Positions 9,101 through 63,900 of a stretch of DNA of 64,000 nucleotides are shown here, one piece after another. Numbering within the stretch: position 1 is the stretch's first letter; each line of letters begins with the position of its first letter. Origin of the DNA: Rhynchobatus australiae. Lineage: Eukaryota. The stretch is from NCBI GenBank assembly GCA_034780895.1, contig JAUZTB010000087.1, positions 29,593,259 through 29,657,258 on the forward strand, written 5' to 3'. Under the pieces are notes generated by a model that ran no database searches, had not been told where the DNA came from, and worked only from the letters and a program-made list of their open reading frames with translations. Both the position numbers and the translations under genes were made by a program.

Positions 9101-12100
9101 GAATTGTTTACCCATTGCAGGCCAATCAAGCAGCTATTTTCATTTGGATATTGGAAAAGAATAAAATGAGATGTTGTAAGGTTAAAGGAATCCAGTATGG
9201 AGCATAAACATTGTTTATACTTGTTGGGCCAAATGGTTTGATCCTTTGCTACATATTAGGCCAACATACTCTCTACCTGCCTACAAAGAGCAGTTTGTAG
9301 CTTCAAATTACAATTCAAACTCCAATAAAAACTCTACACAATAACTAGGAAGCCTCACAAGGAAAGATTTTTCAGAAAAATCTTCTTGATAAATAGACTC
9401 AAATTCACTAATCCTTTGACAGCTGCCCCAGCATGCTTTGAATGCTGACAAAAGCCACTAGGCTTATCCTGGTGTAGCCTACAATCAAGCAATTGAAGTA
9501 TCCTTTGCTCACAAATAAGAATACCAATTAAGCGGGATTGCATCCTTCATACTAATAAAAGGATAGCCACCACTGAACTTGACTGCTTCACAAATGTTTT
9601 TTGTTTCAATTAAATGAAACCATATCCAATTACAAATTAATGTGTACCTTTTTTATCCCGGTGTTCAATGTTAGCACCACGAGCTATTAATACTGATACA
9701 AGTTCTTCATGTCCCCCAGCACATGCCAACGTTAATGCTGTATCATGATTACTCTCCGTCTAAGTGAAAAGACAGTACATTGTTAAGTGAAGTTCCAAGC
9801 AACTTTACAACACAGATGCAACAAACTCATATTCAAGAGCATAGCACTGTCGATGGAAATCACTAGCCCATAATAATGGAACAAGCATTTTGTAGATCAG
9901 CCAAATCTTAGTATCATAACCACCACCTAGAAGAGCACTACATAATTCAAAATATGTTCATTTCCTATTTTAAGGACTTCCCAACGTTTATGATCTTATA
10001 GAAAACTTACTTGGGCGTCAATTTCAACTGAAGGATAAAGGGGCAACATTGAAGAAGGAGAAACAACTGGACTTGGAGTTTGAGTACGAGGCTGAGGAGT
10101 AGGGGGTGTTGTAGTGTGGGAAGAAGCATTCGGTCCAGAAGGCATTCTATTACTCACTGCTGCAAGACAAAATCAATTGTCATTTCTTCAACATTAAAGT
10201 ACAAACTGAGAAAGAACTGTAGGATTTTGGTAGCAGACAAATTTCTATACAAAACAAGCACTTCTTGGAAATGGAGAGCTTGTGTTCAATTTCTGTTATT
10301 TTAAAATATTGTACAGATATTAACTTGCATTTAACTAACAAAAACTAAATAGTTTACTTTGCAATACTGAAAGCTACTTGAAATAATTTTAAACTTTGCA
10401 TCAAAAAGCTGTTCAATTATTATGGCAATAATAAGTCAGTGTTACATACTTAAATAAGTAGCAACATAGTGCTATATAAAACTGAGGGTGGTCAATTTAA
10501 TACTGAACAACAAGCCAACAAGTCCACAAGAATTTTAATCTTACCCAAAGGCCCACCAATTCCTAAAATGAAAATCTCTGGAGACTTGTAAACCAAATAT
10601 ATAAATCTACATCAACCAATACTTTCTCTAGCAATAGTTTTTGAAAACCTTGTAAAAAAAAAATTACATTAATAAACTGCTTGTTTTCCATCTGGAGATC
10701 AATTGCAGCCTCTCCCCTTAATGTTGGCCTCATTTGTTGATTATTAGGCAAAAGCTGGACTCCAACTGTGAATAGCATCCATCAATGGAGTAATAGATAG
10801 TAATTTTAGGCAGATATCATCTCCACAGAAACAGAGATAGGGACTATTTTTTTTTAAATGACCAACGTGGCACAATGGGGATGCCATACTTCCCCCACCA
10901 AGTGCCAGTATCTGATGCTTCGAACTTGGAGATAAAAATTACATGAATGGCCGCTTCCACTTCATATCAATATGCTTTACGATGCAACATGGTTTTAGCA
11001 TGCAGGAACCACAAGGGAGTTCTTGTTCTCAGCTTTCACCTCAGCAACTGCCACATTCATACTTCCAAAACTTCCAGAGTGAGACTACTAAATACGTTCC
11101 CCTCCCCCTTAGCAAAGTCATTCTCCAATCTACACATCACTCCAACACCATTTCTTCTTCCCACAGAATTATCCCAAATGCAGGGATTACAACACCAGAC
11201 CTTTTAATTACACCAATACCACCAACCATTGTCCCACAAGTTCCTCCAGAATTCAATGTACTAGACTTGCAATGAAGTTTCCTCCACGCTGCATAGAGGA
11301 AACAATTTGGTGATCACTTGCAGACACTTTCAGTCCACAAGCACCATATTTATCTTCTGGTCACCTGTCACCAATTCACCACTCATTCTAATTCCCTGCT
11401 CACTCCTCCTGCTTTGATGAAACTGACCGCAAAGCTTGTGGAAAAGTAGCTCATCTTTCATCCAGATGCTTGAGCCTTCTAGACTTAATGACTTCAATAA
11501 TTTCTGATCACTACTGTGCCCATTTTCCCTCCCTGATCACAGTTTTCAGTAACAATGTTGTTTGTTTCCACCTCCTCCAAACCCATTTTATTCTCTATTT
11601 AGCTTATTAACATCCTTTTACACTTGTATTGTCATCCATTTTATCATTTAATCTGTCTTCTACTATATCAGAGCCTTTCTCCATCTTTCCTTTCATGTCA
11701 TGTTGCTCCTCTTCCTTAAAATTGTCTTTTCTCAGTTCTGAGAAATCACTGATCTATTTCCAGCATTGTTATATTTCAGATTTCTACCGTCCATTTTGCG
11801 CTTAGAGGATTACTATTTGTTTTCACACTGCAGTAGCTGACTGAGCCTCACATTAATATTCTCCAATTCCTTGCATATTTCAATAAATTAATTTTATTTG
11901 CTTGAATAATTTGATGAAATGTGTTACAACTATTGTCTTTTTTGACTTTCATTTTCAAAAGTGGTTAGCGTGACACTATTACAGCACCAGCGATCGGTGT
12001 TCAATTCCTGCTGTCTGTAAGGAGTTTGTACATTCTCCCATGTCTGCGTGGATTTCCTCTGGGTGCTCTGGTTTCCTCCCACATTCCAAAGACGTACGGG

Positions 12101-15100
12101 TAGGTTAATTTGGGTTTAAAATGGTCAGCGCGGACTCATTGGGCCGGAAGGGCCTGTTACCACGCTGGAAATAAAATTTTAAAAATATTGGGCAATTTAT
12201 ATAAACAATGTTTTACTTGGGCCGCAGCAAAATTTTGTTCATTGAAAGCAATTTTCCATGTAATTTTTATGATCCAGCTGTTTTCAGAATAGATGTACCT
12301 GCTGGGCATCATGTACATCAAAAGATTTTAAAATCATGAACCTTAGACATGTTTTATTGCTGAACTGATGGAAAGCTCAGAAAAAATCTTGTTTATTTTC
12401 AAAAGGGAAATATTGTTCAAATGTAAATATTTCTCATTAACCTCACATTACCTGAAAAAAAAAGTACAGCTCAAGAAGTTTGATTTGTACAATGCTTAGG
12501 TGCTCAATATTTCAAATTTTCCAGTTGCTTTCCCCACTGCCATACAATCTTCAAGGGAGTGTGGCAAAACACCAATTCCTGATATATAAACACTAGGTGC
12601 AAAACCAGCAAGGTTCAGAGTCTGGACAATGGCTACTGACACATTACTTAATAATGTGGCACTTCACAACTAAATCCTAACTTGTCTTTATCTATATCCT
12701 GACACAAATGAAATGTAGATTAGAAATTACTATTGTAATAAATTATATTTTCTCTTGCACACAATGACTTGCTTTTTGACTTCACCTCTACAGACCAAGA
12801 GACAAGCTTGTGATATCCTTTAGCTATGTTCTGCATCAGAATATGCATTTGCTCACGCACCCAGGGAAGAGATGAGAGAGAAAGTACATGGCGCAGAACA
12901 TCTCAACTTCAAAAGGCTAGTAAGTTACTGTGCAAGAGACTTGTACAAATTATCTATGAAATGACATTAAGTTGTGGATTAGTAGCAGCCAAAGGGCAGT
13001 CAAGGAGAGTTGTTTGACTAAAACAAGGAGAGTAAGTACAACATTGAAAGTGAAGATGGGCATAGGCACATCAATGGTTGTGCAGGTTTTTTTGTTATTT
13101 ATTCGTGCACAAGATGTGGACTTTGCTGAGAATGTCAACATTTATTTTCAATGCATTATTACCCCAGAGGTGGATTTGGAGTCACACTTCAGCCAGACTA
13201 TATTAAAATTGTAGAATTTCCTCTCTGACAGATGTTAGTAAACTGGAAGGGGTTATTACATCAATCCAGTAGTTTTTCTGTAAATTTTGTATTTTTATTC
13301 AATTACTTTAATTTAAATTCTCCCAACTGCCATAGTGGAACATGAAATGTCTCGATCAATTGTCCAGCATTCCAGCTGCTGGTCCAGTGACTGAACCACT
13401 GGCAAATGAAAAATGGTGGATGTACTAGCACAAAGGAAAATTTAAAAAAGACAGTTTGTCAATTTGACATCCATCATATGAAAGAAGTGTGAATACTGAC
13501 TTTAAAAAAACAAGGTGCTGAGATCTATTATTGCGTTAGTTGAATTCAATGGCGGGGGGGGGGGGGGGGGTCATGAAGAAGCTGGGAAATTTGACCATTA
13601 TGCCAAACTTGGAATACTGCAAACACTGAGCATGGTAACTGAACCATTTATAACTTGGAGCTGTTGATGAACTCAATATGACCAATCTCCAAGGACAGAA
13701 GAAACTAAGCAATACAATTTGAACTAGGGTTCAAATCTCAAAAAATCTTCACTTGGAGGGGTACACAAAATAGTTAACTTAATAAAGTAAGTGGAATAAA
13801 AGGCATTTTTGCTGCATCACTTTGCATGACAAAAGGGGACATAAATACTTCTTTATGCTCAGGGTAATCATCAATTGGACTGAATGCTAAGGATAACAGT
13901 TCGAGCCAGTACACAGGATTTATGATCAAAATAATGTAACTGGTTTTCTGGATTAAATAAAATTATACAAAAAGATGTCCAACATACATTGTTCACCAGT
14001 AATCAAAAGCTTTAATCTTGTATGATTCCTGCATCTTTTGCAATTGGGTTCTCTATGTAAAGAGAACCATTAATATTTCAGGAAAAGGATAGCAAACAAA
14101 CAGCAATTTACAAAAAATTGCCAACAAGGTAACATGGGATTACAAGATCTATAGTCTCCAAGATCCCAACTCAAAGTATGTTAGATTAAATAAACAGGTA
14201 ACTTTAAAATGGTACAAGTTCCCACACTGGTAGAAGATGAATGATTATTTGTTTTAGTGGAGCTAGTTAATACATAAATGTTGGTCAGTAAAATAAAAGT
14301 TTATAATACTCTAACCCAGCAGCAGGAGTTAACACATCTTGTCCAAAGCATAGAGCCCTCTAGAATCCTGGTAAGTGGTGTGTTCATTGTATTTTGTCTG
14401 CTGCAGTTAGAACTTGCTTCTTGGATTACTGGCATTGTCTTTAACAATTTAAGACGGGATATACCTAGTAGAAATAGAACATTAGCAGGGAAACAGCTCT
14501 GCATACAAGGAATTGCTGAGCATTTTTTAAAAAAATGTTGAATTTCTACTTTGACTCATAATTGTGGCTTTTGTAGAATTTTATTTTCAATTAAGAGCAG
14601 CTAAATTTTGAATGGTTCTCATGGAGAGCGATCTACAATACCCTGCCCATTGTGGACGATCAAACAAAAGTTTTGATTTTTCTGTTTAAATGACTATCTT
14701 TCATGCTGACCTGCCAAGGGACAACAGTGGATTGGTCTGGGATGGTCAGATTTTATGAGTACAAGCCAGGATTGTGCTTGAGCAGATTTGGGCAAGTAGT
14801 TTTGTCATGTCTCCAATATTACACGTGTGTTAGTTACAGCTACATACCTGGTCCATGAGTGATAGATACATATGCATTTTTCAGCCAAAATTACAATGAC
14901 AAGCCAAAATAGCCAATGTGTTTCCAGGCAAAGTCATGGCCCCAAAAATAATAGATTTCATTAAGTGCAACGACTATGGAATTCTTCAACGTTTAGAAAC
15001 CAAATTCAAGTCCAGCCACAGTCCAATGAAGTGAAACTGCACCCGTTACTTTTTTTTTTGAAAAATGAAATTAGCTTGTGCAGAACCAATCCAGATCCCA

Positions 15101-18100
15101 GTGGGTGTGGACCCACAGCACAAAGTTATTTGTAATTTGGCAAACACACTCAAAAACTAATGGACCATTGGAATGGGTAAGGCAAGTACCATGTACACAA
15201 AGAATGCTATTCCAGGGTCAAGGATGAAGAATGCAGTAATGTGGAATAGGAGCAACCCAACCCCAATTTCAGTGTACCCTGATCTGGGAATGCTTTGCTC
15301 CTAACTAGCAATTCCTAAAATGGAAATGCATCAATTTTCAGTACCAATATCTCAACTTGAGGGCAATTAAAAAGAAATCCACACCATTATTGAGAATTGT
15401 TGGTTGCTGGTTTCATCCCCAGTTGCATGTAATAGCATGGGGTAGACCAATAAGGTGTTTCGGAGTGAGAGTCTCACCTCATATGAGGAAAAAAAGTTTT
15501 TAAAAAAATGCAACTGCTATTCCTACCAAGTTGTTGCAATAGCTTAAATCTCATGCTCTTATATCAAGGTCAAAAATAACTTTCAATTCCTTTGAATGAA
15601 CCTATATTTTAAAATTCATAATCCACTTCATCAGCATCTTCAAACTAAACTATGTGGAATCACAATACATTTATCACATCCAGATATACAAAAAATGACA
15701 ACTACAAATTATATTTACCAAAAAAAGTGTTCTGCTAATAGCCAAGTGCCTAGCTGTTTTGAGAATTCTCATGAAGAGTTACACTTTCAACAAATTTTAT
15801 GCAGCCAGACGGTCATTATACTACCACTAGGTGCCACTATAGCAATTTACAATTGCGACAAGAGTTCCAAAACACTTATTACAAACATCCAGCAAGAGCC
15901 AACTAAAAGTGCACTAAAAATGTCCAATAAAGCCAAGCTCCAGGTACAAGCCCTCAATGTAACAAAACTGAAATCAATCTTAAAAAAATATTTTTGGGTT
16001 GACAAAGTATTCCAATGCAATTTTCCAAAATGATCCATTTGCAATAATTAATATTTGGAGCTTGGGATCCAAATATACACCACCTTCTCAATATTACGAT
16101 GGAACAAAATATAATTCAACACAAGACAACCACATCTCATTGTGAAATTTGGAAGAGTATCACCTTGATAACTTGCTTCCAACACTATTTTTCACAACTA
16201 TGTTATTTGCTAGGCAGGACCTGGACCAGCAACCAGCATTACATTTTTAATGTTACCTGATTTTAGTCTAAATGCTGCTGGAAATTTTATACATATTAGA
16301 ATAGTTATTTTTATAACAAATATCAAGACAACTGACTAGCCTCCAACATTGTCACTAGAAAAAAATTAACAATACCTTAATGATACAAGTAATTACCATG
16401 GAAGGCAAAAAAAATCAGCTGAATTATGTTTACTCCAAAGAAATTCTCCTACTAGATAACAAATCAACTCGAGCATTTCAAAACAAAAGATCAGGTTTAT
16501 AAAAGGTTTAAATAACAAATATTTTAAATTTTGGCCATTTCAGAGAATCAAACAGTTCCCTATTTGTGCTATTTGTGCAGGATGTGGGGAGTTGGTATCA
16601 TTTCATTCGAGTTCATATTCTGCAAAAATAAAGCATTTTGATTCGGATAAAATACATAGCATAAGCTTTTTGAAGCACATCTGTAATGCGAAATAGGAGG
16701 TTCAGTTCCATTTCTAATATTCGCTCTTGATACCAAAATACAATTTGATTTCAATTTACTGAAGTATTTTGATAAGGGTATGCTGCAGTTATACAAATCT
16801 TCATTCAGTAATTAAATTTGTGGGCTGCAACAAGGGGAAAGCACAATCTTTATATTAAAAATACAGACATTTCAGTGGTTGACTGGAAATTCTCTTTTCC
16901 TGAGCAGCTAGTTTGAGCCAAAATGGCCCCCTGGAAGTAGTTTCTTATTACTTCAAATTCCAATTTAACTGCAGCGATACAATATCCATGTCAAAGTGGC
17001 ATTGGCTTTTAACAAAATATGAAATAAAACTGTCCTCCAATTTAGGCAATATTCTTTATTTCAGCTTTTTGTGGCTTAAACTACTATGATGACAAAGGTC
17101 AATGAATATAAGATCATATTGAATCAAAGTTTAAGGGAACAAACTAGTCAAAATTGAGATAATGCCCATGCATTGAGACAGCTCAAGGGCAAAACAGATA
17201 TCAATGTTTGGTAACAAACTTGCTGAATATATTTTCCAGTTAGTGTGTGTGATTTTTAATTTTCAAATGAGTTTACCTTCTAATTTCAAGCCCATTTTAC
17301 TTTTTTTTCTTAAAAAGGAGAGTGGCAATGAGAGTTTGCAAACTTCAGAAATCTGAAATTAAAGGAAAAGGCTGGAAATGCAAAGCAAGTATCTGATAGA
17401 CAAAGAAAGTTCACATGCTGATGTATGACCCTTGATTAGGGCTGCTCAGTTGTGATAGTATATTATAATCAAAATACAGGCTTTAGTTTATCTTTCAGAT
17501 ACTGACTGAGCTCTACATATCCAACTTTCAAATGTCAAGAGCTACTTAAAAGGAATGGCAATTTTTGGCTGGCTAGAAACAGCATTGCCACTTACAGTAG
17601 TCCAAATAAAGCATTGCATCTACAGTTCTGTCTCTCAATAAATCTAACAAATATCCATTTGCACCTAAAAGCTAGTAGATGTGAGCAAAGGCAAAGTATA
17701 AAAGAGGACCAATTCTCAACCCACCTGCCATGATGTCATCAAGAGTGTCAGTTAGCGTCTGTGCTGGAGTTGCAACCATGAATCCATCAGGTGCTTGAGC
17801 TAAGAGTCCCTGTCCAAGTCCAGCAAGTTGTGCCTGTCCTAACAAAGGCTGATTCACAATTACTCGCTGTAGATCGGGTACGTTAGTGATAGGATAAACA
17901 GAACTAGTAAAGTTTGGAGATACTTGTGTTGCTAAAGGTTGAATAGGAACAAACCCCATTTGGGTGGCAGGTGGCTGCTGCTGGCCATCTCTGTGCAAGA
18001 TGGTGTCCACCTGAGGCAACTTTGAAAAGTCTTCCTCTGGCAGACATTCACCAGTCCCCACCTGAGAGAACAGTCCTCCATGTGGGCATTGCTGCTGTTG

Positions 18101-21100
18101 TTGCTGGAGCTGAAGCGTCTGTTGTTGACCCTTGGCTTCCAAGTACTCTTTGGTAAACTGCTGCTGAGTTTTCAGCTGCAATTCCCTTTCAACCTTTTGC
18201 AGCTCTTTCAAAATCTTTTTCTTCTTCTGTACTTGCTCTTCTCTGCTCTTTTTTAGTTCTTCTATCTTGTCTTTGGTTAAAGTGTCTCCCTGAATCAATT
18301 CTAGTGACTTCAACTGTGCCTTCTCAATAGCGTTAATTCTTTGTCCCAGCTCTGTCAGCTTGCCTTCCGTCTCTTCCACAATGCATTCTAAAGGCTGGTA
18401 CTGGTGGAAGGGCTGGACATCCTGTTCCGCTACCTGCAGGGGACTGGACTTCTGCTTGGATGTACCTAAGCACACGAAAAATGTTTGAAAAAATGCCATG
18501 CAAAAATTACTTACCCATGTGTAACCACTGTAAACTTTTCACCACATTGTGGCTTTTATTCAGTCTAGCACTGAACATAAACTTTTCTACATTTGCTTTG
18601 TTCAATCTAATGAAGAATTTGCATTCCAGATATCAGTTTTGCAAGTTTTCGGAAATTATTTGCCATCATTTTTTTGTCAAAGAAGAAATGGGAAAGGAAA
18701 AAAAATTAAATAGTTTCCACAATAGAATTTCTAGAAAATGGTAATTTTGGATAATAGGGTTAAAGTACAATTATAGTAAAAATGCTGGGTAGCATTAGAC
18801 CACTTTTTTTTTGAATACTGCAATATTATCGTCTCAGGATCGACAATTCCTTCCCCGATTTCAAGTCAACATGCCTCTTCTCCAACTACTACAAATATAA
18901 TCTAAATTGGTCTTCAAATAATTGTCTCACAGGACAACCATAAAAGTAATTAGCTTCTCTGAATTACATTTAAGCTGTTTATCATTGGACCATTCCTTTG
19001 TCAAGCACCAGATGTCTGAACTAAACATAAGGTGCAATTAAGAGCTTAAAGAAACCATCTTAAAATTTTGAATTATGCTACTTTAGAATTCCCAATCTGT
19101 ATTTAATTTTGAACTGTAGAAAGTTGATAATCAAAATAATTGCAGATCAAAGTATTGTGAATACATTCTGACAGATTCTCTAGATTTCTTTTAAAGATGT
19201 GCCTGATTGAAATTATACATTCACTTTGAATAATGCAAATTTTGTCTTCTATAAAGCTAGAGCCACATGGAAGAAGATTATGAACCTGAAACATGCAAAT
19301 ATTTGAGATTTCCAAATTACTTTTATTTTTCAAGTCAACTTCAAGATTGCAGGATAATTTCCTTTGATGGTTCTATTGGTTCATGCAACATTGCTCGAGG
19401 CAGTACTAAGCCAGTGAAGTTGCAGATTTAATTTCTGGTGTTTATGACGCACCAAGGCCAAGGGGATGGAGTCTAGTTACATGTTGCCTCAGAACCACTG
19501 CTCGATAAAGGCAGAAACAGTTAGGTACACAGTTATCATTCCTCACAAGTATCACGTGATCCTTGCTGGGAGTGAAAACCTCGTACACAAAATTAAAGTA
19601 ACCTTTAATGGCCTTCTGCACGTATCCTATATGCACTGTCGCTTTCACCCATTAATGCATTCCTTGTCCAACAAACAACAATTTGAAAAATTCTTAACCT
19701 TTCAAATCACCCCCTTCCTTCTCCATCTCCTCTAGCACACTGCAAACTCCCAAAATCCCTGCATTTTCCAATTCTGATCTCCTGAACATCCCTGATTTTA
19801 ATCTCTCCACTAATGGCAACCATACCATGCACTACCTTATCACTATACTTCAGAATTCCTTCCCTAAATCTCTCCCGTTTTCTCCTCACAGTAAAAGCTC
19901 TTTGACCAAATCTTGGGTATCTTTCAGACAAGGTTCCAGAGAAGTACCTTGGGAAATTTTGCTGCACAAAAAGCTGCTATTTAATGCTACATAGGCTCAC
20001 ACTGAACAAATAATTGGGCAAAAAGCAGAGGGAATTTTATCATAAAGCTATAATACAGAATGTTAGAGACAGAACAGTGATTAAATAAACAATCCATATC
20101 CATTTCCAGGAGATAGGTATTAAAGTGGCTGTATTTGCTTGAAAATACACTTTATATGCCAAAGGTAGATGCACTATGTCACTGCTTTTAATTTCATTTT
20201 GATTGGAGACATGGGAAGGAGAAGAAATGCATTAGCAATAAGGACAATAATGATAGCTCAAAACACATGTAATTTTTACAAGAGGAAATACGAATACTGA
20301 AGCTCCAGTGCTGCCTCATTAACTGCATAGGTCATACAAATAGTTAAAAATAATTAACTCACTAATCTTAATTGTTCATTTAGTAAGGAAGTCAGAAATT
20401 ATTCCACAAAAATTTATTACTCAAGAAAGCATGAAGAAACCTCACAGAAAAATTTTTTCTCCCTTTTAATTTTTTATTTGAAATATCAGTTTACTAACAA
20501 AGATCCAAGGCCTGTTTTCGGTGCTGTCAATGATTGGCTAATTGGTATCACTGACTCAGAGCAAATTTTCAGTATAGGTAATTTTTGTTTTACATTGTGC
20601 ATTAAAATACTGCCATGATTTGCTTATGGAAAAAATACAGCATTTTTATGCAAAACTATTGGGCAATATTGTCATTTACCATAATGCATCAAAATCACCG
20701 GATATTTTTAACCAATATTTACAATATGCACATTTGCACAAATGGCAAAAGAGATGGGCACAATTTATCAAAGCCTCCTTTAACAATAAACAGAATAGAC
20801 TTTTTGGAATTTGTTTCTATATATCCTTCCATTTTTTTTAGAAAAGTTGATTTTAACACATGTCTGAAACAAAAACAAGGAAGGATACAAATAAGATGAG
20901 CTAGTTTACATCTAATTATTATATGCCTTAACCTTGCAAAGTAAGCTTTCAAAGTAATAAAAAAACTGGCAAGGGGACACAGAAATAGTTATTCATATAA
21001 CTATTCATTTTGAATACTTAAAACATTCCTTGTATCAAAAAAAATTAATGTCATCAATAACCTAAAATTTAGTGAAGACATCAGAATCACAGATTGAAAC

Positions 21101-27100: not shown

Positions 27101-30100
27101 AAACTCACCTTTATTAATTACAGAAAGAGTAGTTCCAACATTTGCTGGAGATTGGTCAGGCTCCTGGGGTGGAACTACCATGGCAAGTGCTTGTACTGGT
27201 ACCCTGGGAGCCTGGAAAAAATGTTAATTACAGAATAACCCAATTATAATTATATAAACTTATACAGCCATCCACAAATAATAATAAATTTTCAAATAGA
27301 AATTGAACTATTCAAAAGTTTTCAATCTTTATTAAAGTTTAATTTTGCAAGAATCGAAGTGCAAGCCCATTATGTCTGTGCCAGTTCTCTGAATGAGTTA
27401 TCAATGAGTCTTATTTCCTTGCACCTTTTTCTACTACCTTGCAAATATTTCCCTCTTTTAAAGCATCTCACCATTGTTTTTGCATTCCAGGTAGGAACAA
27501 GCAGCTGCTCTTGGTTAACTGTCTTAAAGGGACGATTGCTATTTACTGACCTTTTTGTAACTGGAAACAGTATCTTATTGCCAAAACCTATCATGATTTT
27601 AAATATACAGATTACATTTTCCTTTAACCTTCCGAGCTTAAACAGAGAATGACCTCAGTTTCCTTCATCTATTCACATAACTGAATTCCTGCATCCCTGG
27701 TACATTCTGGTAAATCTTACCTCAACCCTGAGATCTAACACAATCCCCAGTAAGACTGGGCTCTGTCACCGTGGAATTTGGCAATGGAATGGACAGAATG
27801 AAGGTGCAGTTATCACCCAGTAGTTTCTGGAATTATGGCAGTCTTGGCATGGAAGAAAAAATATTGTCAAATGAGAGAAAATGCTTGACAATTTGGGAGA
27901 TTATTCCAAGGCTAAAAGTGGCAAATTGCAACAATAAGAGGTCATGTTATTTTCTTCTCTAAGCAAATCTTCTGCATCTAAATCATTTCAAACATATACA
28001 GGGATACCCTGTGATGTAGATTTTGGCACAGTGAACAAAGCTGTATAAATGAGCCACAGATATTTTCAGCAGGAAAACTGTGGGAAATGGTGCCAACAAT
28101 GCAGAAATGTGCTTGTAAAATTCACATCAAACAATGAGGGAAAATATACTTAGTGGTTAAGATGGTACTAATTCACTCTTAAAACCCCAAGTTTAAACTA
28201 ACTTCAGTTCTAAACCAGTGTTACCTTCAAGGTGAAAACTACTTTTATATCTAACTACTCCTGAGGTAGATTAATCCACAATGTGTCACTCCAAAATCTG
28301 AATGAATCACAGCTGCTATTTTGAATAACTCCTGAAGGAATCAGACCAAAGAAACAGTCTTTGGGAACATATGCACTGGCCAGAAGGCTAGAATAAACAA
28401 TTGTTTTCCTCTTAAATGCTCAAATTAAAACCAAAGATCTCTGCAATGTTCAAATTTTAGTATTGTACATATCTAATCCTAGTTCAAACTTTATTGATAC
28501 CATATCTATTACTCTGGAGACCTTGTATCAAAAATCCCAAATACATGTTGCAACTTTGCAATTTCAAAGCANNNNNNNNNNNNNNNNNNNNNNNNNNNNN
28601 NNNNNNNNNNNNNNNNNNNNNNNNNNNNNNNNNNNNNNNNNNNNNNNNNNNNNNNNNNNNNNNNNNNNNNNGCTGCTAATCACAAAAATAGAACTCAAAA
28701 AGAAAGAACAAGATACAAATTATCAGGATGTAATTAGTGGGACACTACAAACAAAGAACCATTAGTTCTTGAGCCAGCCATTTCTAACTGTATCAACAAT
28801 AAAGACCGAGGAAATTAATCCAAGTTTCATCACAATACAAAGCTAGTGGAAAAATGAGCTTTAAGGAAACAACCAAAGAATACAGAAACATATGGACAAG
28901 TAGGCAAAAATATGACAGATGGAAAGTTAGCATTTTGATTGACATGTTGGCTTTTGTTACAAAGGAATTGGAATATAGAGCAGAGAGGTCTGGCATCATT
29001 AACAAAAGTACTTGGAGAGATTAAGCCCACTGTAGTAGTGTTTTGGTCTCCTTAGCCAAGGAGGAATATGCTTGCCTTAGAGAGTACAGAAGTTCGTTGG
29101 ACTGAATTCTTAGATGAGTGAGTTATCACACAAAGAAACCATGTACACAAGTCCTATATTCTTGAGCTTATATGAGTGAAAGTTGATCTTATTTATGTTA
29201 AGAATTTGTAAGGGGCATGGCAAGGTAGATGTTAGGAGAAACCTTCCCTTGGTTGGCCAGTCTGAAGCTACGGGAATCAATCTCAATAAGGGAGTACCCG
29301 TTTAGGAACCTCTCCATGCACCTTTTGCATTTACAGCATTGTGATTCCTTGGTGTTTGTGCATATTCAAGGCAACATCTAACAGGTTTTTGCATTAGAAA
29401 GGGAGTCAAGGGATATGAGGATACTGGGGAAAGGTGGTGCCATAGTGGGAAATTAATCTTGATTTAACTGAATGGCAGGACAGGCACTTGAGTCAAATCT
29501 CCTACTATTTCTTTATATGATTTAATAAAAGTACTACTCTTGTTCATTGCATACCTATTGCAATTTTGATTCCAGTTGATCAAAACTTTGTAAGTAGAAC
29601 AGTTTAAAGTTAAGTCTAAAAATATGGCAAGTTAAAATGACCTGTATGCAAGCTTATGCAATAATAATTATAATTAGCCAAAAATTCAAACTTTGACAAG
29701 AATGTCTTGAGTGCACATCAAGGTTACAATGCTCAGCTTATATTTTACTCACTTTTGTTAGTGTGCTCACAATTAGTTTCAAAAATAAATTGCCATCGGA
29801 AAAATCACCTTAAATGAAGATGGTAATTTAAATCCCCTTTTGCAGTGGAAGCAGTAAATTGAAAATAATTTGGAGCCTCACCTGAGACTGATCATGAGAA
29901 GGCGGTGTGAGCTGAGCCACATCTGGTCCTGGAACAGGCAAGATGTTGTTTGGGTAGTCTAACAAGTATGATACTACGTTTGTATGCCCTCCTTTAGCAG
30001 CTTCAATGAGCATTGTGGAGCCATCCTGAGGAATACAAAGTTAGGCCAAATGTTTTCATTAAAGGAATTTTAAGGACTTTTGACATCAGAATTACAAAGT

Positions 30101-33100
30101 GCAGTCTACAAAACTTGCCTTCTAAAGCACATTTTCAATACCTTTAATCGGTGTGTAGGATCTGCTCCATGTGCCAAAAGGAGTTCAACAACAGCAAGAT
30201 GTCCTCCAGCACATGCCAAAGACACCACAGTATGATCATTGTTAGCTGTAGCTCTGTTCACATTTGCTCCTGAAAAGATAAAATCAAAGTTATCATGAAG
30301 CAGTTGTGCCTTGATCACACATGCAACCTGCACAATACATTCACTGCAATTCCAGTGTGAGAAAAATCCCATGTTTCACTAATATCTTTTCAGGGAAGAG
30401 AACCCATCATCCATGCCATTCTAACCCAATTACAACTCTAGATCTATGGTAATGTGATCAATTACTAATTGCCCCCTGAAATAACCCAATGTGCAACTCC
30501 ACTTAAAAGGTAATTCTTGTGACACTCGGATGTCATAAAAGAATGAAATAGTGGCTGTGCAATTACTTGTTTNNNNNNNNNNNNNNNNNNNNNNNNNNNN
30601 NNNNNNNNNNNNNNNNNNNNNNNNNNNNNNNNNNNNNNNNNNNNNNNNNNNNNNNNNNNNNNNNNNNNNNNNNNAACCTCTAATGCTTAATTATGACCCA
30701 AGTCTAGAGTGACTTTAGGTAAATAAAGTAAATGCTTATCAACTTCTCTAATTTATTTTGCCATCAACTTACATCATGGCAAATAAATCTACCAGTATGC
30801 CTTTGGGATATGGAAGGAAATTTGCATGGAGACAGAAGAAACAAACTCTGCACGGAGAGCACAAGGTCAAGATCAAACCCGAATGCCTGGAGCCAATGGG
30901 CAGCAACACTAACCGTTGCCCAGCTGCGGCGCAGTTAAATCAACTCCAAGAGGATATCCTAAGAAAATGTACAGACCAAAAAAAAGTAACCCATGTGTGA
31001 AACTGAAGGTGACGTGGGCAAATTTCTGAATGAATTTTTTTTGAGAGAGACTTCGCAGAAGAGAATTAATGTCAATGGTGTAGTTAAGGTATTGGATGAG
31101 ATAAATGTAGGTAAAAGTATGACAAGGTTATCACCTTTGAAGATGGATAAATTGGCCGGCCCAGATTAAATGAATCCCAGGCTGTTAAAAGCAGCAAGGG
31201 AGGAAATTGCAGAAGCTCCAACTGTACTTTTTCCAATCCCCTATGGCTACAGGAGTGGAACTTAAGGGACTGAAGAACTGTAAATGCTTCACCATTGCTT
31301 TAAAATAAATAATTACAGCCCAGTTTAACTTCAAGGATGCCAATTATTGGAACTCAGGTCACGTTTAACTAGCTTGATTGCATTCTTTGAGGAGCGATAA
31401 GGAGGGTTGTTGAAGGCAGTGCATTTAGCAAGAATTTTGACAAACTCCAATATGGCAAACTGGATAAAGGAGGAAATGCCCATTGGATTCAAGAGAGATT
31501 GTCAAATTGAATCAAAAACTTGCTATACAGTGGGAAGTAAAGATAATAGTTAATGCACGTTTTTGTCAAAGGTTGTTACAAATAATGTTCAATAGGTATC
31601 AATGCTTGGTGCCTTGCAATTTGTTAAAATATTACAGTTTAGACCCAAATGTAGGGGGCATGAAGAATAGTTTCGTAAATGATGCTAAAAATGGCTATGT
31701 GGTTGACAGAGAGGAACAAAAATTTAGACTGCACAAAGACACAGATGGCCTGATCAATTGGGCAGAAATGTGGCAAATAGAATTTAATCCACAGAAGTCT
31801 GAAGTAATTTATTTGGGAAGATGCAACAAGGCAAGGGGAGATGCATTACATACAAGGGACAGGGGTAGGGGTAGGGGAGAGGATGTTGCATGATAATGCA
31901 GAAACAAAAAGACCTTCAAGTTCAAGCAGTCAGATCCTTAAAGGCAGCAGGTAGATTGATAAAATAGTTAAAAAGCCACAAGGAATACTCCCCTTTGTTA
32001 GCCAAGGCACAGAATAGGAGATAGGGTGAATATGCACGACGATACAACACTAGTTGGACAGTTCAAGTATGGAGTGCAGTCTAGTCATCACAATAAAATT
32101 TTTAAAAATGTGATTGTAATAAAAGAAATGGAGATGATGCCAGTAGTGGAAAATTGTCACCATGAAGGAAACAAAAATAATACAAGGTCATTTTCTATGG
32201 AATGGGAGGTTGAGGGGAGACTTAACTGTGGTATGCAAAATTAAGGAGCAAGGCAGTAAATTGGAAGGACCTTTTCCCCCCCCTTAGGGTCAACAACTTG
32301 GAATGACACATTAAGACTGGAAGAGCATTAAGTGTGGAATATACTTCGGTGATTTGGAACTGGAGGCAGAAAATGTTGCAATAAAGTTTGATAGCTCTTC
32401 TAACAAGTTTATTTCAATGGATAGATGTAATTGATAGAAGGATTAGAGCAGAAAAGGAAACATTTCATCACCTAGAGAGTGATAAGGGTCTAGAATATTT
32501 CCTGGAAGGGTGGCATTGCCACAAATCATCATAATGCTTCAACAGTATTTAGATGTGCACAGGCTATGTGCTGGAAGGTGGGCTTGGCTGGGTGGCTTTT
32601 TTAAAAAAAAAGAATGATAAATGACTGCTTCCATGTCATAATTTTTTTCTATGGAGTTAAAGAAAATGCCTGCAACCCATGAAAACCTGAACAAGCTTCA
32701 GCAAGAATTCAAAAGGATCTGAGCATTGAATATGCACTCATGTAATAAGGAGAAAAACGTGCTTCAAAGAAAGCAACATTGTTTACCTAATGTCAGGATT
32801 GTCTCTTAAATCTTCACTTCTTGTATTTCATTCCAAGATCCCCATTTAAGTGAATTTAGAACAGTTATCAAAACTTTCTTGCAGCACTTTTCTGCTTCCA
32901 CTGAAGAAATATTCCACACTTGCATATTCTTCCAAAATCACTAATAGAACCCAGATTGCCAGCTCTGGCTCTGCATGGTGCACTGAAATCAATGATCTAT
33001 GTATGGTTTGCTGCTAAGTAAACAGGTTTCAAATTGTGCTACTGGGATTGGTGAGATAAAAGCATATTTCTGATATCTGAGCGATATTATTCCTTAAGTT

Positions 33101-42100: not shown

Positions 42101-45100
42101 TGGAAGCAATGCAATTCTCTCTCTATACAAAAACAATCTTCCGTGGTTTTATATAACAAATACAGGAGTTAAATCTTGCTAATGTGTGTAGAAGAAAGGT
42201 TTTCCATGGTTCGTACTTAATTTTTTCACAAGTCTTCTGATTGCAATGAGCCCAAGCCCATTACTTTCATTGGCATAGAAAATATTTGTTCCCAAAACCA
42301 ATCATATCTTAGTTCCTAAGAATCAGTCAGGAGATATACAAAAAGGAAACAGGCCCTTTGGCCCACCAAGTCCATGCCAACCATCAACCACACATTTACA
42401 CTAATCCTACATCAATCCTAGTTTTTATTTTCCATGTATTCTCATCAAATACCCCAAAATTCTGCCAGTTACTCAGTTAGGAAATTTACAGTGGTCAATT
42501 AGCCTACCAACCTGCATGTCTTTGAGGTATAGAAGGAAACCAGAGTACCCAGATGAAACCTACATCGTCACAGGAAGAACATGCAAACTCCACACAGTGG
42601 GCACCCAAGGTCAGATTGGACCCAGGTCTCTGGCATTATGGGGCAGGAGTTCTATTAGCTGTGCCACTTGTGCCACCCTGTTAAGTACAGGGTCATCCAG
42701 CACTTGAACTGCTCACCAAAATGCTTTTACCTTCTGTTCAGTGCAACCATTTTATCTCCACCAACATAGTCTCCATCTCCCACTTGAATTGCATTGGTCC
42801 TGCAGCAGTCATAGTCAGGTTTTGGCTTGACTTTTCGGGTGATCATCCCATACTCAAACAAATCATCTCTTCTTCCAAAATGCACCTACTGACTTCATGA
42901 CAATATATCTGTCCCTTAGCCTTTATTTAACCTCCAACTTAAATAATTTCATCCTTAGCAATTTTATCTCACATTTTAACCACCTTACAAAGACTGATTT
43001 CTCTAAATGTTTTCTACCTGAGTCCAACTTTCCACATTAATTATCTGACCCACCTTTCATCAAATATAATGCAATATTTGGCAAAATTATAGGAAGTGTT
43101 TGAAAGAAAACTTCATTTGTCATCAAGCTATCTCTCAAAAGTATAAGTGATCAGAAAGCTATTAACAAAAAAAAAGAATGATTTGCATTATCTGGATTTA
43201 TCAAAATTAACTGACTACTAACCCAAATGCAAATTTAAGTGGAAGCAATAGTGCAAGATGTTCACAAAGCATAACTTTTGCTTTCGGAGCAGCTTCTCAT
43301 TTAGCAACACCCATCCCACCCAAGTTACATTTTTAGATTTTTTTCAAGTTTCAATCTGGAGGCTTTATAGTTGAAACACAATTAGAGGGATAGGCAAACA
43401 GATCAGGTCACAAATCAGGTTTCTATCTCCATAAACCTAAATCAACAACAACATAATCAAGAACTGCTTTAGGTGAAAAAAAATCTTTATACGTTCCATA
43501 TATAGGGAAAAAACTGCATTAATCTGGCACATTTGGGACACTGGTGGTGCCAGACGAGCAGCTTTGCACTGTTAGATATTATTCCTAATAATATTCCAAC
43601 TCAATTTTGATTCTTTTTCTAAAAAAAATAGAAAAATAATCAATTTTCCAGTGAACCAGGTGAATTTCCAAAGGAGCAGAGAAACTAGCACGAATGGGAT
43701 CATGGGAACCAGCACCCAGTGAGCCAGATGCCAAACCATCAAGACTGCTAAATAGATAGGCAGCAGATAATTAGAGTTTCACTATACAAGGGAAAGGACA
43801 AATTTTAAGGCATGATAATTCTTGTTTAATTTTCATAAAAATTATTTAATATTATTAATTAATCCACTGATTGCAATTCAGGCTCAGCTCCATTTCTCCC
43901 CCTCTTACTCACCAAGGTAATAAACAGAACAACAATATCAACATTTTTATATTTTAGTTGCTTACACTTCAGATTCAACAGGATAATTGATAAATGAAAA
44001 TGCTAGAACATTTAAAACATAAGTAACAAACTCAAATAAGCCAAAGAAAGCTATGTTGTGTGAATCCTAAATCACTGGTGTCATTTAGCAAAACTTAAAT
44101 GCGTACAACCCCCATGTTATGGGGGGGGGGGGGGGTTGCATTCCAAGAGAATGGGCCACATTGCAATTTTCGGTAACGCAAAGCTGCATCACATATGCGT
44201 GCGACAGAAAACACAAGTTGAAAAAAATTATGTTGATTTATTTACTTTTTTGTCCACAAATTCCACAAGAACAAATTTTATTTCGCATCTCAAAATTTCT
44301 GGGTAGCGACTTGTGAATTCTGTAAGGGCAAATTTCCATATCCTGAAGGGTCGTGATGTGGCGGTTGCCTATATATTCTTTCTATCAGGTTGGCTTTTCC
44401 ACAAGCAAAATTCATCAACTACATATTAAACATGCTCTCCAATAATACGATATCTGTGACTGTATCATTTTAGGTTTAGATGTCAACTGATAATAATTAC
44501 CATGGAAGTAGAAAAACAAAAACTATGTAAAGCTAATTGCAATCTCATTAGGTTCCCAAATTACTTCTGCATAAATGTGGCCAAACAATTCATTTTTGTT
44601 ACTTAACAACTCAACATCACAGAAATAAAAAAAAAGTAGAAATCCTAAAAATGTGAACTGCAATGTAATACAAAATACAGGATGTTGAAGTACATTTATT
44701 TTCACTCATGTATATTATTATTACTTACTTGTGCAAGTTCATAGTAACCAGCTGAGCATGCCAAACACAGCAAACTCTCACCCTCTTCTGTATGCTCATT
44801 TACACTTCGACCTTCATCCAGCAGTTTTCGGACAGCATTTACATCTCCATCTGAGCATGCTTCTGCCAAGCTTCGGCTAACAACAAAAATAAATTAATTC
44901 TTTTACAGAAAAACAGATTTTATTGAAACTTTATATACTGCTGTATGAATTTATTCCTGAATTCCAATCAAGGCTGAGCCAAAACCCTACTATTGATCTT
45001 TCAATACTTTCATATGAAATTTCACTTTTGATCACAGATGCCAGGAGGTTTTCTGTATGCTCGAGTTGGCATACTATAAACTGATGAAAATATATCAATT

Positions 45101-60930: not shown

Positions 60931-63900
60931 ATTTTGGTATTCATCACAAAAGAACCATATGAAAGGAGTAGCAGCAATCAAGTGAAGAATGCTGGAGTTG
61001 GCAAGCTAAGTCAAATTAAATCACCATAATGCTGTTTGGGATCAAAAATAGTAGTTTGCAAAATCTCAGCTACATCTTAAGTAGGTCATCTTATAACCAC
61101 AGCAAATTGGAATTTCATTTTTCACTCTAAATGAAGAACTTACAAGTTTTGACACACAGACTGAAAGAAATAACATGCCAGATTTTATTTTAATTGTAAA
61201 ATTTGCAATTCTTATCCTTAGCAAGCAACTGATTACAGTTATGGCCAATTAATTAACTCTCTATTCTATTCAATTTATCATTAGGTTCTAATACAACAGG
61301 GGAATGGGGCAAAAGAACATTCCTACTTCCTGCACTGCATTACACAAGTAGATTGTTTTACCTGAATCTACTCTTCATTGCATTCTGGTTACAAGACAAA
61401 ATGAAGACCAATTAAAATTGCAATTTTGGGACAACTGAGTATATACTTACTACAAAAATGTGCATTGCCAGAAAATTAAGTGGATCATAAAAATGTTCTT
61501 TTGTCAAGGAAATAAATTCTACATTTCTAAATTGATCACTGGGGAAGTTCTCATGAAATAAATACTTATATTTACACTGTTTTACCAAAACCATACAGCA
61601 GGCCAAAGGCAATAAGAAGTGTTCCAATGTTAAAATGTCCCTCAAAGTTGTAAAGTCCTGCACAAAACTAAAATGATTTGTCAATGATCAAATTACTAAA
61701 CAAATCTTGGAATACCGTTCCCTAGGGTGGCATTGTGACTAGTGAAATCATATAGCGACAACCTTCCACATCAGAGCTGACCGGTTTCATTCCATCTCAG
61801 CTGAAGTGAAATTATTCCCAAGTTTAAGACAGATGTCAATGCAGAAATTGAAAAGCAAAAAAAGCAGATACTGAGAATTAAAATAAAAACAGAAAATACT
61901 GCAAATACTCAGAAGACGAGGCAGAATCTTTGGAAAGAGAAGCAGAGTTGATGTTTCAAGTCAATGACCATTCTTCCTCTTTGTTTCTCTCCCCTATGAT
62001 GCTGAGTATTTCCAGCAATTTCTCGTTTTATGGCAAGTCATCAGCACTTGTGGACAGTAGAGATTTCCCTGGATTATCCACATTTAAATAGCAATGGGTT
62101 TCAGTGTTTGAAGTGCCTATACTTACTACACAAAAAGAAACTAAATAAAATAAAGTCGGAAATATTAAACTGCATTTGTTCAGTGATGAAAAAAATTTTC
62201 TCAATATCAATAACCAATTCCAAAAGGCACCAACTTGTTTTAACCATATTACACAAGTGTTAAGAGAATATAATCTACAGTAAGGAAAACATAAGAATGC
62301 CAAACATTTAATTCAAAACAAAAAAGCAAACCAATGTGAAAGGCGTAGATGGGGAGAAAACAGTTCATAAATTATGAAATTAGAGAAAGTCATAGGCATT
62401 TGCACTCATTTTTTGTTTTACAAAGACATGTTTCAGCCATCATGAAAACAATTTAAATAATTTTAGCATAAAGGTACATTTAAGAAACATTTTGTCCCCA
62501 ACCTACCATGCCTCAAAAAAGTTGAACAGTTACACCTCAAGGGACAATTACATCCTAAAATGTTTTGTATTACAATGCCACCTAACAAGTTAGAGCTTAG
62601 ACCAAAATATCTGCAACACAAAAAGTGTTGAAAAGTTAATCTCATTTAAAAATCAGAGTCAAAACATGCGACATAATAAAACCTTAGGCTCCAATATCAG
62701 GCGTTTATTTTCCACTAAAAGCATGGTCTTAAGATAATTGCATCAAGCAGACAGATCATGTTGCTTGCTGTTCAACTAAAATGCTTCTAAACATTATGGT
62801 ACACCAAAACAGTGTGTATTATGCAGTGTCATGAAACCTCCTCCAATATTATTTCAAATTATTTATCCATGAAGTCAAAAGATTCTGTCACTAACCAGAT
62901 ACATACAATTAAAGTTGAAAACAATGAAAAATATGAAAAAGGAATTACCATATTAAAAAGATGACAAAAAAGATGTTGCCTCAAACTTGAACACAGCTTG
63001 GCTATAAAAGCACATGCTACCAGTTACTCATTGCTTGAATTTAGAATTATATTGTATTTCGCATACTGTTTTGAATGCCATAAAACATGCAATAATAAAG
63101 AACAAATGCACTGGGGCAAAAAAAAACTAAAATCACCATCTTCACACAAACAGCAAACACAAAAATCAAGGCAATGGGCAAACAGACCATAAATGTACAC
63201 ATACCATATATCTCTTCCCATTCTGAATCTTCAGGAGGAGAGGAAAAAGAAAAAAAAATAAGTAGAATGACTTCATATATGTAAGCTGAATTCCTTCCTT
63301 CAGAAATTGTGTTGTGCAAAAGGAAAAACAAGGCAAGAATCTGGTTCTCGCCTTTCAGAAACACAAATATTACACTTGTACTAATGGGATATTCATCTAA
63401 AGACCAACGTTCACCCTCCCCTCCCCCCACTTTTGAGATGTAGTTTGCAGGCAATGCAGCTGCGTAATATCTACTAATTTTGAAGATTTTACCCTTACAG
63501 GCCTATAATAATAACAACATTATTCTGATATCATGGTTGAATAAATGTTACAAATGAACTATGTAATTGCAGAATTAAAACATCCACCTGGCAATTAAAT
63601 TTCTCCAAGATCACAGTTCACATTTCTAGCCAAATCATAAGAGGCATTTTTTCCTCAAGACCTACATTTTGACATCTTTTGACCATTCAGTTCAAAGATT
63701 TTAAAAATTCAAGATCTGACTGATTTGAAGAGAGAAAGTTGCAGTGCTTTAGACTAATTAGCAGTAATAAAAAGGGAAATCCTTCATTTCTAAATTTAAA
63801 TCAATTTGTGACCAACTTAAGTACATTAATCACATCAGTCTACAAAATAAATCTTAATAAGTCGTGATTATATACAATGATACTTCTCAGGCAGAGCTGT

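What the first reader, a model, noticed from the sequence alone, without database searches (positions are those of the whole stretch)
19280..19645. Candidate unannotated 45-nt in-frame cassette exon in ANKHD1 intron 14, in a CpG-retaining patch
Seen in sequence: the minus strand reads tacCTAAC-tgtttctgcctttatc-gagcag|TGGTTCTGAGGCAACATGTAACTAGACTCCATCCCCTTGGCCTTG|gtgcgt. The exon (19497-19453) is 45 nt, phase 1-1 like the flanking junction, and stop-free, adding VVLRQHVTRLHPLGL just before the coiled-coil exon. I count 7 CpGs in 19391-19645 and none in 18901-19380. TGCATG occurs downstream at 19382-19387 and 19292-19297, and a TGC sits in the pyrimidine tract. Established: RBFOX sites downstream and UGC upstream (SRRM4) favour neural/muscle inclusion of small exons. 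Inference: a selected, tissue-regulated exon that changes the inter-ankyrin linker. Caveat: TGCATG is fairly common in this window, so it is weak support alone.
Basis: partly seen in the sequence, partly recalled or inferred. Interest (0 to 1): 0.7.

Follow-up and report, generated by a model that had tools for sequence, protein, structure and literature searches.

The report
Exon look-alike in ray ANKHD1 intron
A 45-base stretch inside an intron of a ray's ANKHD1 gene carries the signals of a small optional exon, but none of 78 shark, ray and chimaera ANKHD1 protein records examined contains it, so it is likely a skipped look-alike, though a real exon confined to this ray's lineage remains possible.

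Summary
Its use as an exon is unproven: no RNA reads could be laid on it. Against: 0 of 78 chondrichthyan ANKHD1 proteins (20 species, 78 of about 283 records) carry the 15 residues, although the same records hold two smaller optional exons of this gene and skipping of the next exon. No counterpart was found in a fish intron or 4.9 kb of a bird intron. The CpG patch is chance-level. A gene-trained matrix finds 102 equal-or-better decoys. For: with thresholds set at its own values it is the only one of 2,509 intronic segments with good core signals plus branch motif plus TGCATG (67), and it is single-copy. SRRM4 class: length not met. Verdict: likely decoy (0.58); real lineage-restricted exon 0.28. 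The scan has not reported this segment on other DNA (57, 59).

The parts
19453..19497 (-). Candidate 45-nt exon (phase 1-1, stop-free; would add VVLRQHVTRLHPLGL); use unproven
   Evidence: absent from 78 of 78 chondrichthyan proteins
19520..19524 (-). CTAAC branch-point-like motif, predicted branch A at 19521 (-24)
19498..19519 (-). Pyrimidine tract with TGC at -16 (19513-19511) and tandem GAG/CAG acceptor; the upstream AG would give an in-frame 48-nt form
19447..19452 (-). Donor GTGCGT (6 of 9 positions match the U1 consensus); an internal donor after 19481 (7 of 9) would give a 17-nt frameshifting form
19382..19387 (-). TGCATG (RBFOX-type motif), 66 nt after the donor
19292..19297 (-). TGCATG (RBFOX-type motif), 156 nt after the donor
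19396..19640 (.). Patch of 7 CpG; one of 4 such patches in the window, chance-level
27109..27211 (-). ANKHD1 exon 14 (upstream exon, phase-1 donor)
17725..18465 (-). ANKHD1 exon 15, 741-nt coiled-coil exon, phase 1-1; skipped in 24 of 78 chondrichthyan protein records
10011..10159 (-). ANKHD1 exon 16 (acceptor used when exon 15 is skipped)
63205..63228 (-). Positive control: annotated 24-nt microexon (DSEWEEIY) of the same gene

Best explanation
The 45-nt segment lies in ANKHD1 intron 14 with an acceptor, a donor and an open frame, and it is likely a decoy (pseudo-exon) that the spliceosome would normally skip, joining exon 14 to the coiled-coil exon or to exon 16. Shown: the signals, the frame, and that every examined chondrichthyan protein joins exon 14 directly to exon 15 or exon 16. 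Inferred: a 45-nt exon with a middling donor (T at -3 and -2, C at +4) and a competing GAG just before the CAG is too weakly defined to be included above noise; the CpG patch and the branch motif are chance products of 93 kb of intron; the two TGCATG are background or serve the regulated exon 15, about 0.8-0.9 kb downstream.
For: 0 of 78 chondrichthyan ANKHD1 proteins (19 named species plus one unnamed close relative, 542/549 identical over the long exon) have any insertion at this junction: 53 read INKG|TSKQK, 24 skip exon 15, 1 is an aberrant model. They include the X1 isoforms of 7 species and 15 ray or skate proteins. The same records do hold an 8-aa optional exon (29-30 of 78) and a 7-aa one (11 of 78), so small exons of this gene get annotated when used. 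None of 328 other vertebrate records with the exon-14 anchor has a like insert; the 5 longer junctions are teleost linker variants or mispredictions. A fish intron 14 is only 144 nt with no such segment; 4.9 kb of a bird intron gave no significant match (17 of 100 shuffles scored as high). A matrix trained on 28 introns of this gene puts the donor above only 2 of 28 and the acceptor above 1 of 28 real sites, with 102 equal-or-better in-frame decoys of 12-51 nt in 93 kb, 29 with a YTRAY motif. Core signals plus CTRAY are expected 1.25 times per 93 kb. The CpG patch is chance-level. Decoy exons outnumber real ones about tenfold in human introns (PMC3098058, passages).
Against: No RNA was examined, so skipping is not shown. 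Only 78 of about 283 chondrichthyan records in the clusters could be listed, and only one from the closest relative. By plain counts the sites are ordinary, not weak: 12 of 28 real donors have 6 or fewer U1 matches and 21 of 28 real acceptors have 12 or fewer pyrimidines; the matrix rests on 28 sites, one probably misassigned. With thresholds set at the candidate's own values, 11 of 2,509 segments pass the core test and the candidate is the only one with CTRAY and the only one with TGCATG within 170 nt; the antisense control gave 5, 0, 0. None of about 15 simulated core-plus-CTRAY segments had a TGCATG. TGCATG is biased to the sense strand in this window (40 vs 18, P = 0.005). The segment is single-copy, not a repeat. 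Bird and fish are too distant to test a ray-specific exon.
Confidence: 0.58

Rival explanations
1. It is a real optional exon, restricted to this ray's lineage or included at low level, recognised through its branch point at -24 and enhanced by RBFOX proteins at the two downstream TGCATG sites in brain, muscle or heart. It would insert 15 residues into the linker between the first ankyrin block and the coiled coil (after residue 650 of the closest relative's protein).
For: Only segment of 2,509 with core signals, CTRAY and TGCATG together; two TGCATG within 165 nt at 0.4% of positions; phase-symmetric, open in both the 45- and 48-nt forms; single-copy. TGCATG is the one motif enriched downstream of alternative micro-exons of up to 51 nt, and RBFOX-regulated ones have weaker splice sites (PMC4317164, passages). 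The gene has other lineage-limited small exons.
Against: 0 of 15 ray and skate proteins and 0 of 78 chondrichthyan proteins carry it. The thresholds were chosen after the fact. Alternative micro-exons and their flanks are usually conserved across vertebrates, and none was seen in bird or fish.
Confidence: 0.28
2. The functional part is not the exon but an intronic RBFOX-type element that helps control skipping of the 741-nt coiled-coil exon 15; the exon-like shape is incidental.
For: Exon 15 is skipped in 24 of 78 chondrichthyan records. A GCATG sits at the same distance (36 nt) before its acceptor in this ray and in a bird contig. The bird intron also has TGCATG about 0.3, 1.0 and 2.5 kb upstream. 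Upstream RBFOX sites repress inclusion (recalled, from no call).
Against: The two sites are 0.8-0.9 kb from the acceptor, and no alignable sequence surrounds them in bird. TGCATG occurs 40 times on this strand of the window.
Confidence: 0.09
3. It is used with the internal donor after 19481 as a 17-nt frameshifting (poison) exon that sends the mRNA to nonsense-mediated decay, which protein records would not show.
For: The internal donor has 7 of 9 U1 matches; the 17-nt form meets a stop early in exon 15.
Against: That donor lacks both the G at -1 and the G at +5; no conservation was found; no RNA evidence.
Confidence: 0.03
4. The patch is a transposon remnant or an intronic non-coding RNA (it has loose box C/D-like words) rather than a splicing feature.
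For: An 86-96-nt, 74-76% match elsewhere in the genome lies about 220 nt upstream of the candidate. The genome search skips very common words.
Against: 19380-19660 matches only itself at E <= 10. No Rfam family reaches threshold and none overlaps the segment. Folding z = -1.1.
Confidence: 0.02

Closest known systems
Decoy (pseudo-) exons of vertebrate introns (PMC3098058, passages read)
   Same: AG...GT segment with plausible splice signals and no evidence of use
   Different: Carries a branch motif and two downstream TGCATG, a combination no other decoy in this gene has
RBFOX-associated alternative micro-exons of up to 51 nt (Li et al. 2015, PMC4317164, passages read)
   Same: 45 nt, multiple of three, long flanking introns, modest splice sites, TGCATG downstream
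   Different: No transcript support; conservation of exon and flanks not found in bird or fish and untested in sharks and rays
SRRM3/4-dependent neural microexons (bioRxiv 10.1101/2024.09.17.613571, sections 3 and 10 and passages read)
   Same: A UGC lies between the branch motif and the AG
   Different: 45 nt against 3-27 nt; donor not strong; branch point at the ordinary -24; the TGC is inside the pyrimidine run
Annotated 24-nt DSEWEEIY microexon of elasmobranch ANKHD1 (window 63228-63205)
   Same: Same gene, phase 1-1, small, one TGCATG downstream
   Different: That one is in 29-30 of 78 protein records and has 16 of 17 pyrimidines in its tract; the candidate is in 0 of 78

Membership tests
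Alternative (cassette) coding exon | Canonical AG and GT, frame-preserving, stop-free | tested here: met
Alternative (cassette) coding exon | Junction reads showing inclusion | not tested
Alternative (cassette) coding exon | Present in annotated isoforms of related species | tested here: not met
   0 of 78 chondrichthyan proteins, 78 of about 283 records listed
RBFOX-associated micro-exons (Li et al. 2015) | Length of 51 nt or less, multiple of three | tested here: met
   45 nt; definition
RBFOX-associated micro-exons (Li et al. 2015) | TGCATG in the downstream flank | tested here: met
   66 and 156 nt after the donor
RBFOX-associated micro-exons (Li et al. 2015) | Exon and flanks conserved across vertebrates | tested here: inconclusive
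   Absent from a 144-nt fish intron and not found in 4.9 kb of a bird intron; no shark or ray intron DNA available
RBFOX-associated micro-exons (Li et al. 2015) | Inclusion depends on RBFOX | not testable with these tools
   needs knockdown or minigene
SRRM3/4-dependent microexons | 3-27 nt | tested here: not met
   45 nt; range
SRRM3/4-dependent microexons | UGC between branch point and AG | tested here: met
   TGC at -16; 2 of 11 core-passing segments have one, so weak
SRRM3/4-dependent microexons | Strong donor, with branch point and pyrimidine tract set back from the AG | tested here: not met
   6 of 9 U1 matches, branch A at -24, tract runs to -7
Transposon-derived exon | Matches a repeated family in the genome | tested here: not met
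   single match at E <= 10; no repeat library on hand and very common words are skipped
Known non-coding RNA family | Rfam match | tested here: not met

The most novel reading that the evidence does not exclude
A young, ray-lineage, RBFOX-enhanced 45-nt exon born from unique (non-transposon) intron sequence, inserting 15 residues at the entrance to ANKHD1's optional coiled-coil module and possibly coupled to its skipping in brain or muscle.
Probability: 0.25. Interest if true: 0.35.

Novelty: not a real feature. Interest (0 to 1): 0.17.

Why it matters
If it is a decoy, it matters only as a caution: textbook splice signals and a CpG patch arise by chance in long introns. If it is real, it would be one more unannotated small exon in a gene that already has several, of a well-known RBFOX-type kind. 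Its value would be as a dated case of exon birth from unique intron sequence in cartilaginous fishes, next to a conserved optional exon of a Hippo and JAK/STAT scaffold protein (roles from PMC10454556). It would not change a field.

Tried and rejected
No reads or contigs could be laid on the stretch, so inclusion and conservation in close relatives stay open. Protein searches and the representative search returned no chondrichthyan protein; the profile search did. Cluster listings show 15 members at most, and asking again (46) gave no new shark or ray member. Exact look-up of two plus-strand ORFs over the patch: not in the collection. The paralogue ANKRD17 could not be compared: only a 564-base contig matched an ankyrin exon and its coiled-coil exon was not found. 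The bird record could not be searched beyond the 4.9 kb held. Rfam, folding and Pfam on the 68-codon open frame through the segment: nothing. CpG retention as a sign of selection: rejected. SRRM4 class: rejected on length and donor. Literature: 'ANKHD1 + microexon' 0 papers; 'ANKHD1, exon, splicing' 97 papers, 30 seen as a listing only; 'ANKRD17, ANKHD1, alternatively spliced, isoform' 1 paper. Passages of PMC10454556 and PMC6721216 describe truncated and read-through isoforms, not this exon. No supplements were read; micro-exon tables there could bear on human ANKHD1. Earlier scan notes by place, sequence and words: nothing on this segment.

Full report
Observation. On the minus strand, CTAAC (19524-19520) precedes a pyrimidine run and GAGCAG, then 45 nt (19497-19453), then GTGCGT. 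There are 7 CpG in 19391-19645 and none in 18901-19380, and TGCATG lies at 19382-87 and 19292-97. Spliced mapping to a skate ANKHD1 protein fixed 28 introns (two corrected by hand). It shows phase-1 junctions at 27109, 18465/17725 and 10159. Intron 14 is 8,643 nt, with 7,611 nt before and 987 nt after the candidate. In silico inclusion of the 45-nt form, or of a 48-nt form from the tandem AG, keeps the frame open; a 17-nt form from an internal donor meets an early stop.

The gene and organism. The exons match ANKHD1. The host is a ray-like cartilaginous fish: over the long 549-residue exon the best named matches are stingrays and devil rays (528-529) and skates (518-519), and an unnamed record matches 542. 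In that record the junction lies at residues 648-651, before the coiled coil and in the linker between the two ankyrin blocks.

Is it used? RNA could not be examined, so the direct test is missing. The indirect test is annotation. A profile search reached chondrichthyan ANKHD1 and cluster listings added members, giving 78 proteins from 19 named species and one unnamed, out of about 283 records in those clusters. None has an insertion at this junction: 53 join exon 14 to exon 15, 24 join exon 14 to exon 16, and 1 is an aberrant model. The set includes the X1 isoforms of 7 species and 15 ray or skate proteins. The same records carry an 8-residue optional exon (29 by alignment, 30 by motif), which I located at window 63228-63205, and a 7-residue one (11 of 78). 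So small exons of this gene are annotated when they are used. Of 474 proteins stored, 68 lacked the exon-14 anchor and were dropped; none of the 328 non-chondrichthyan records with the anchor has a similar insert (best local score 21 against a self score of 73). This argues against an exon conserved across sharks and rays. It says little about one confined to this ray's order, for which only one protein was seen.

Conservation in DNA. Two metagenome contigs held vertebrate ANKHD1 (2 of 144 candidate stretches). A fish contig has the whole intron 14 in 144 nt with no such segment. A bird-type contig holds the last 4.9 kb of the intron: the best alignment to the candidate was reached by 17 of 100 shuffles, and no 120-nt tile passed the 99th shuffle percentile. 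In contrast, the bird aligns to the intronic flank of exon 15 and has GCATG at the same distance of 36 nt. ANKRD17 could not be compared.

Chance. Two scorings disagree and both are reported. A matrix trained on this gene's 28 introns ranks the donor above 2 of 28 and the acceptor above 1 of 28 real sites, and finds 102 in-frame, stop-free decoys of 12-51 nt that equal or beat both in 93 kb; 29 have YTRAY, and of the 12-99-nt decoys 3 have CTRAC and 2 CTAAC, counting the candidate. The matrix is small, and one training donor looks misassigned. Plain counts are kinder: 12 of 28 real donors have no more U1 matches and 21 of 28 real acceptors no more pyrimidines. With thresholds set at the candidate's values, 11 of 2,509 segments pass, and the candidate alone has CTRAY at -18 to -40 and alone has TGCATG within 170 nt; the antisense control gave 5, 0 and 0. 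Simulation expects 16 core-passing and 1.25 core-plus-CTRAY segments per 93 kb, none of about 15 with TGCATG. So the branch motif is expected once per gene, and the unusual element is the pair of TGCATG (0.4% of positions), chosen after the fact in a window with 40 such motifs on this strand. The CpG patch is not unusual: 4 in the window, 1.09 expected, P(at least one) 0.68. The segment is single-copy, matches no Rfam family and has no notable fold.

Mechanism. Most likely (0.58) the segment is a decoy: exon 14 is joined to exon 15 or 16, as in all records, and this short segment with a middling donor is not defined above noise (inferred). The main rival (0.28) is a real but lineage-restricted or low-level exon enhanced by RBFOX. 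Its layout fits alternative micro-exons of up to 51 nt, which have downstream TGCATG and, when RBFOX-regulated, weaker splice sites, but which are usually conserved with their flanks (PMC4317164, passages). Smaller rivals are an RBFOX element for exon 15 skipping (0.09), a 17-nt poison form (0.03) and a repeat or RNA remnant (0.02). The SRRM4 reading fails on length (3-27 nt) and on donor strength and branch-point spacing (bioRxiv 10.1101/2024.09.17.613571, sections 3 and 10). Decoys outnumber real exons about tenfold in human introns (PMC3098058, passages).

Novelty. Nothing on an ANKHD1 microexon was found in the paper library, and the review passages read list other isoforms (PMC10454556; PMC6721216). 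Earlier scan notes hold nothing on this segment, but report the 24-nt intron-2 microexon in another genome, which I had found independently. If real, the candidate would be a new member of a known kind; on present evidence it is more likely not a functional exon. Interest 0.17.

Noticed in passing
window 63228-63205 (-): Annotated 24-nt microexon (DSEWEEIY) in ANKHD1 intron 2, with a long pyrimidine tract; in 29-30 of 78 chondrichthyan proteins.
   Followed up: partly
window 18465-17725 (-): The 741-nt coiled-coil exon is skipped in 24 of 78 chondrichthyan records from sharks, rays and chimaera; its upstream intronic flank aligns with a bird contig and keeps a GCATG 36 nt before the acceptor. 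It is the better-supported regulated exon here.
   Followed up: partly
window 33333-30270 (-), intron 11: A 7-residue optional insert (GFNFVFS) seen in 11 of 78 records, the five shown all carpet sharks; the peptide was not found in this region's sense frames.
   Followed up: partly
window 1-64000: TGCATG is biased to the gene's sense strand, 40 against 18 (P = 0.005).
   Followed up: no
window 11969-12223, 30853-31054, 44102-44362: Three other intronic patches with 7 or more CpG in 246 nt; not examined.
   Followed up: no
window 62554-62507 (-): 48-nt in-frame, stop-free AG...GT segment with CTAAC and higher matrix scores than the candidate (5.5 and 7.6); no matching insert seen.
   Followed up: no
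window 10162-10159 (-): Tandem acceptor of exon 16: some shark and chimaera records differ by one alanine at the exon 14-16 junction.
   Followed up: no
G000 C72759; L009 7250-10000: The paralogue ANKRD17 seems fragmentary in this assembly (one 564-base contig matched), and several ANKHD1 exons fall in N runs.
   Followed up: no
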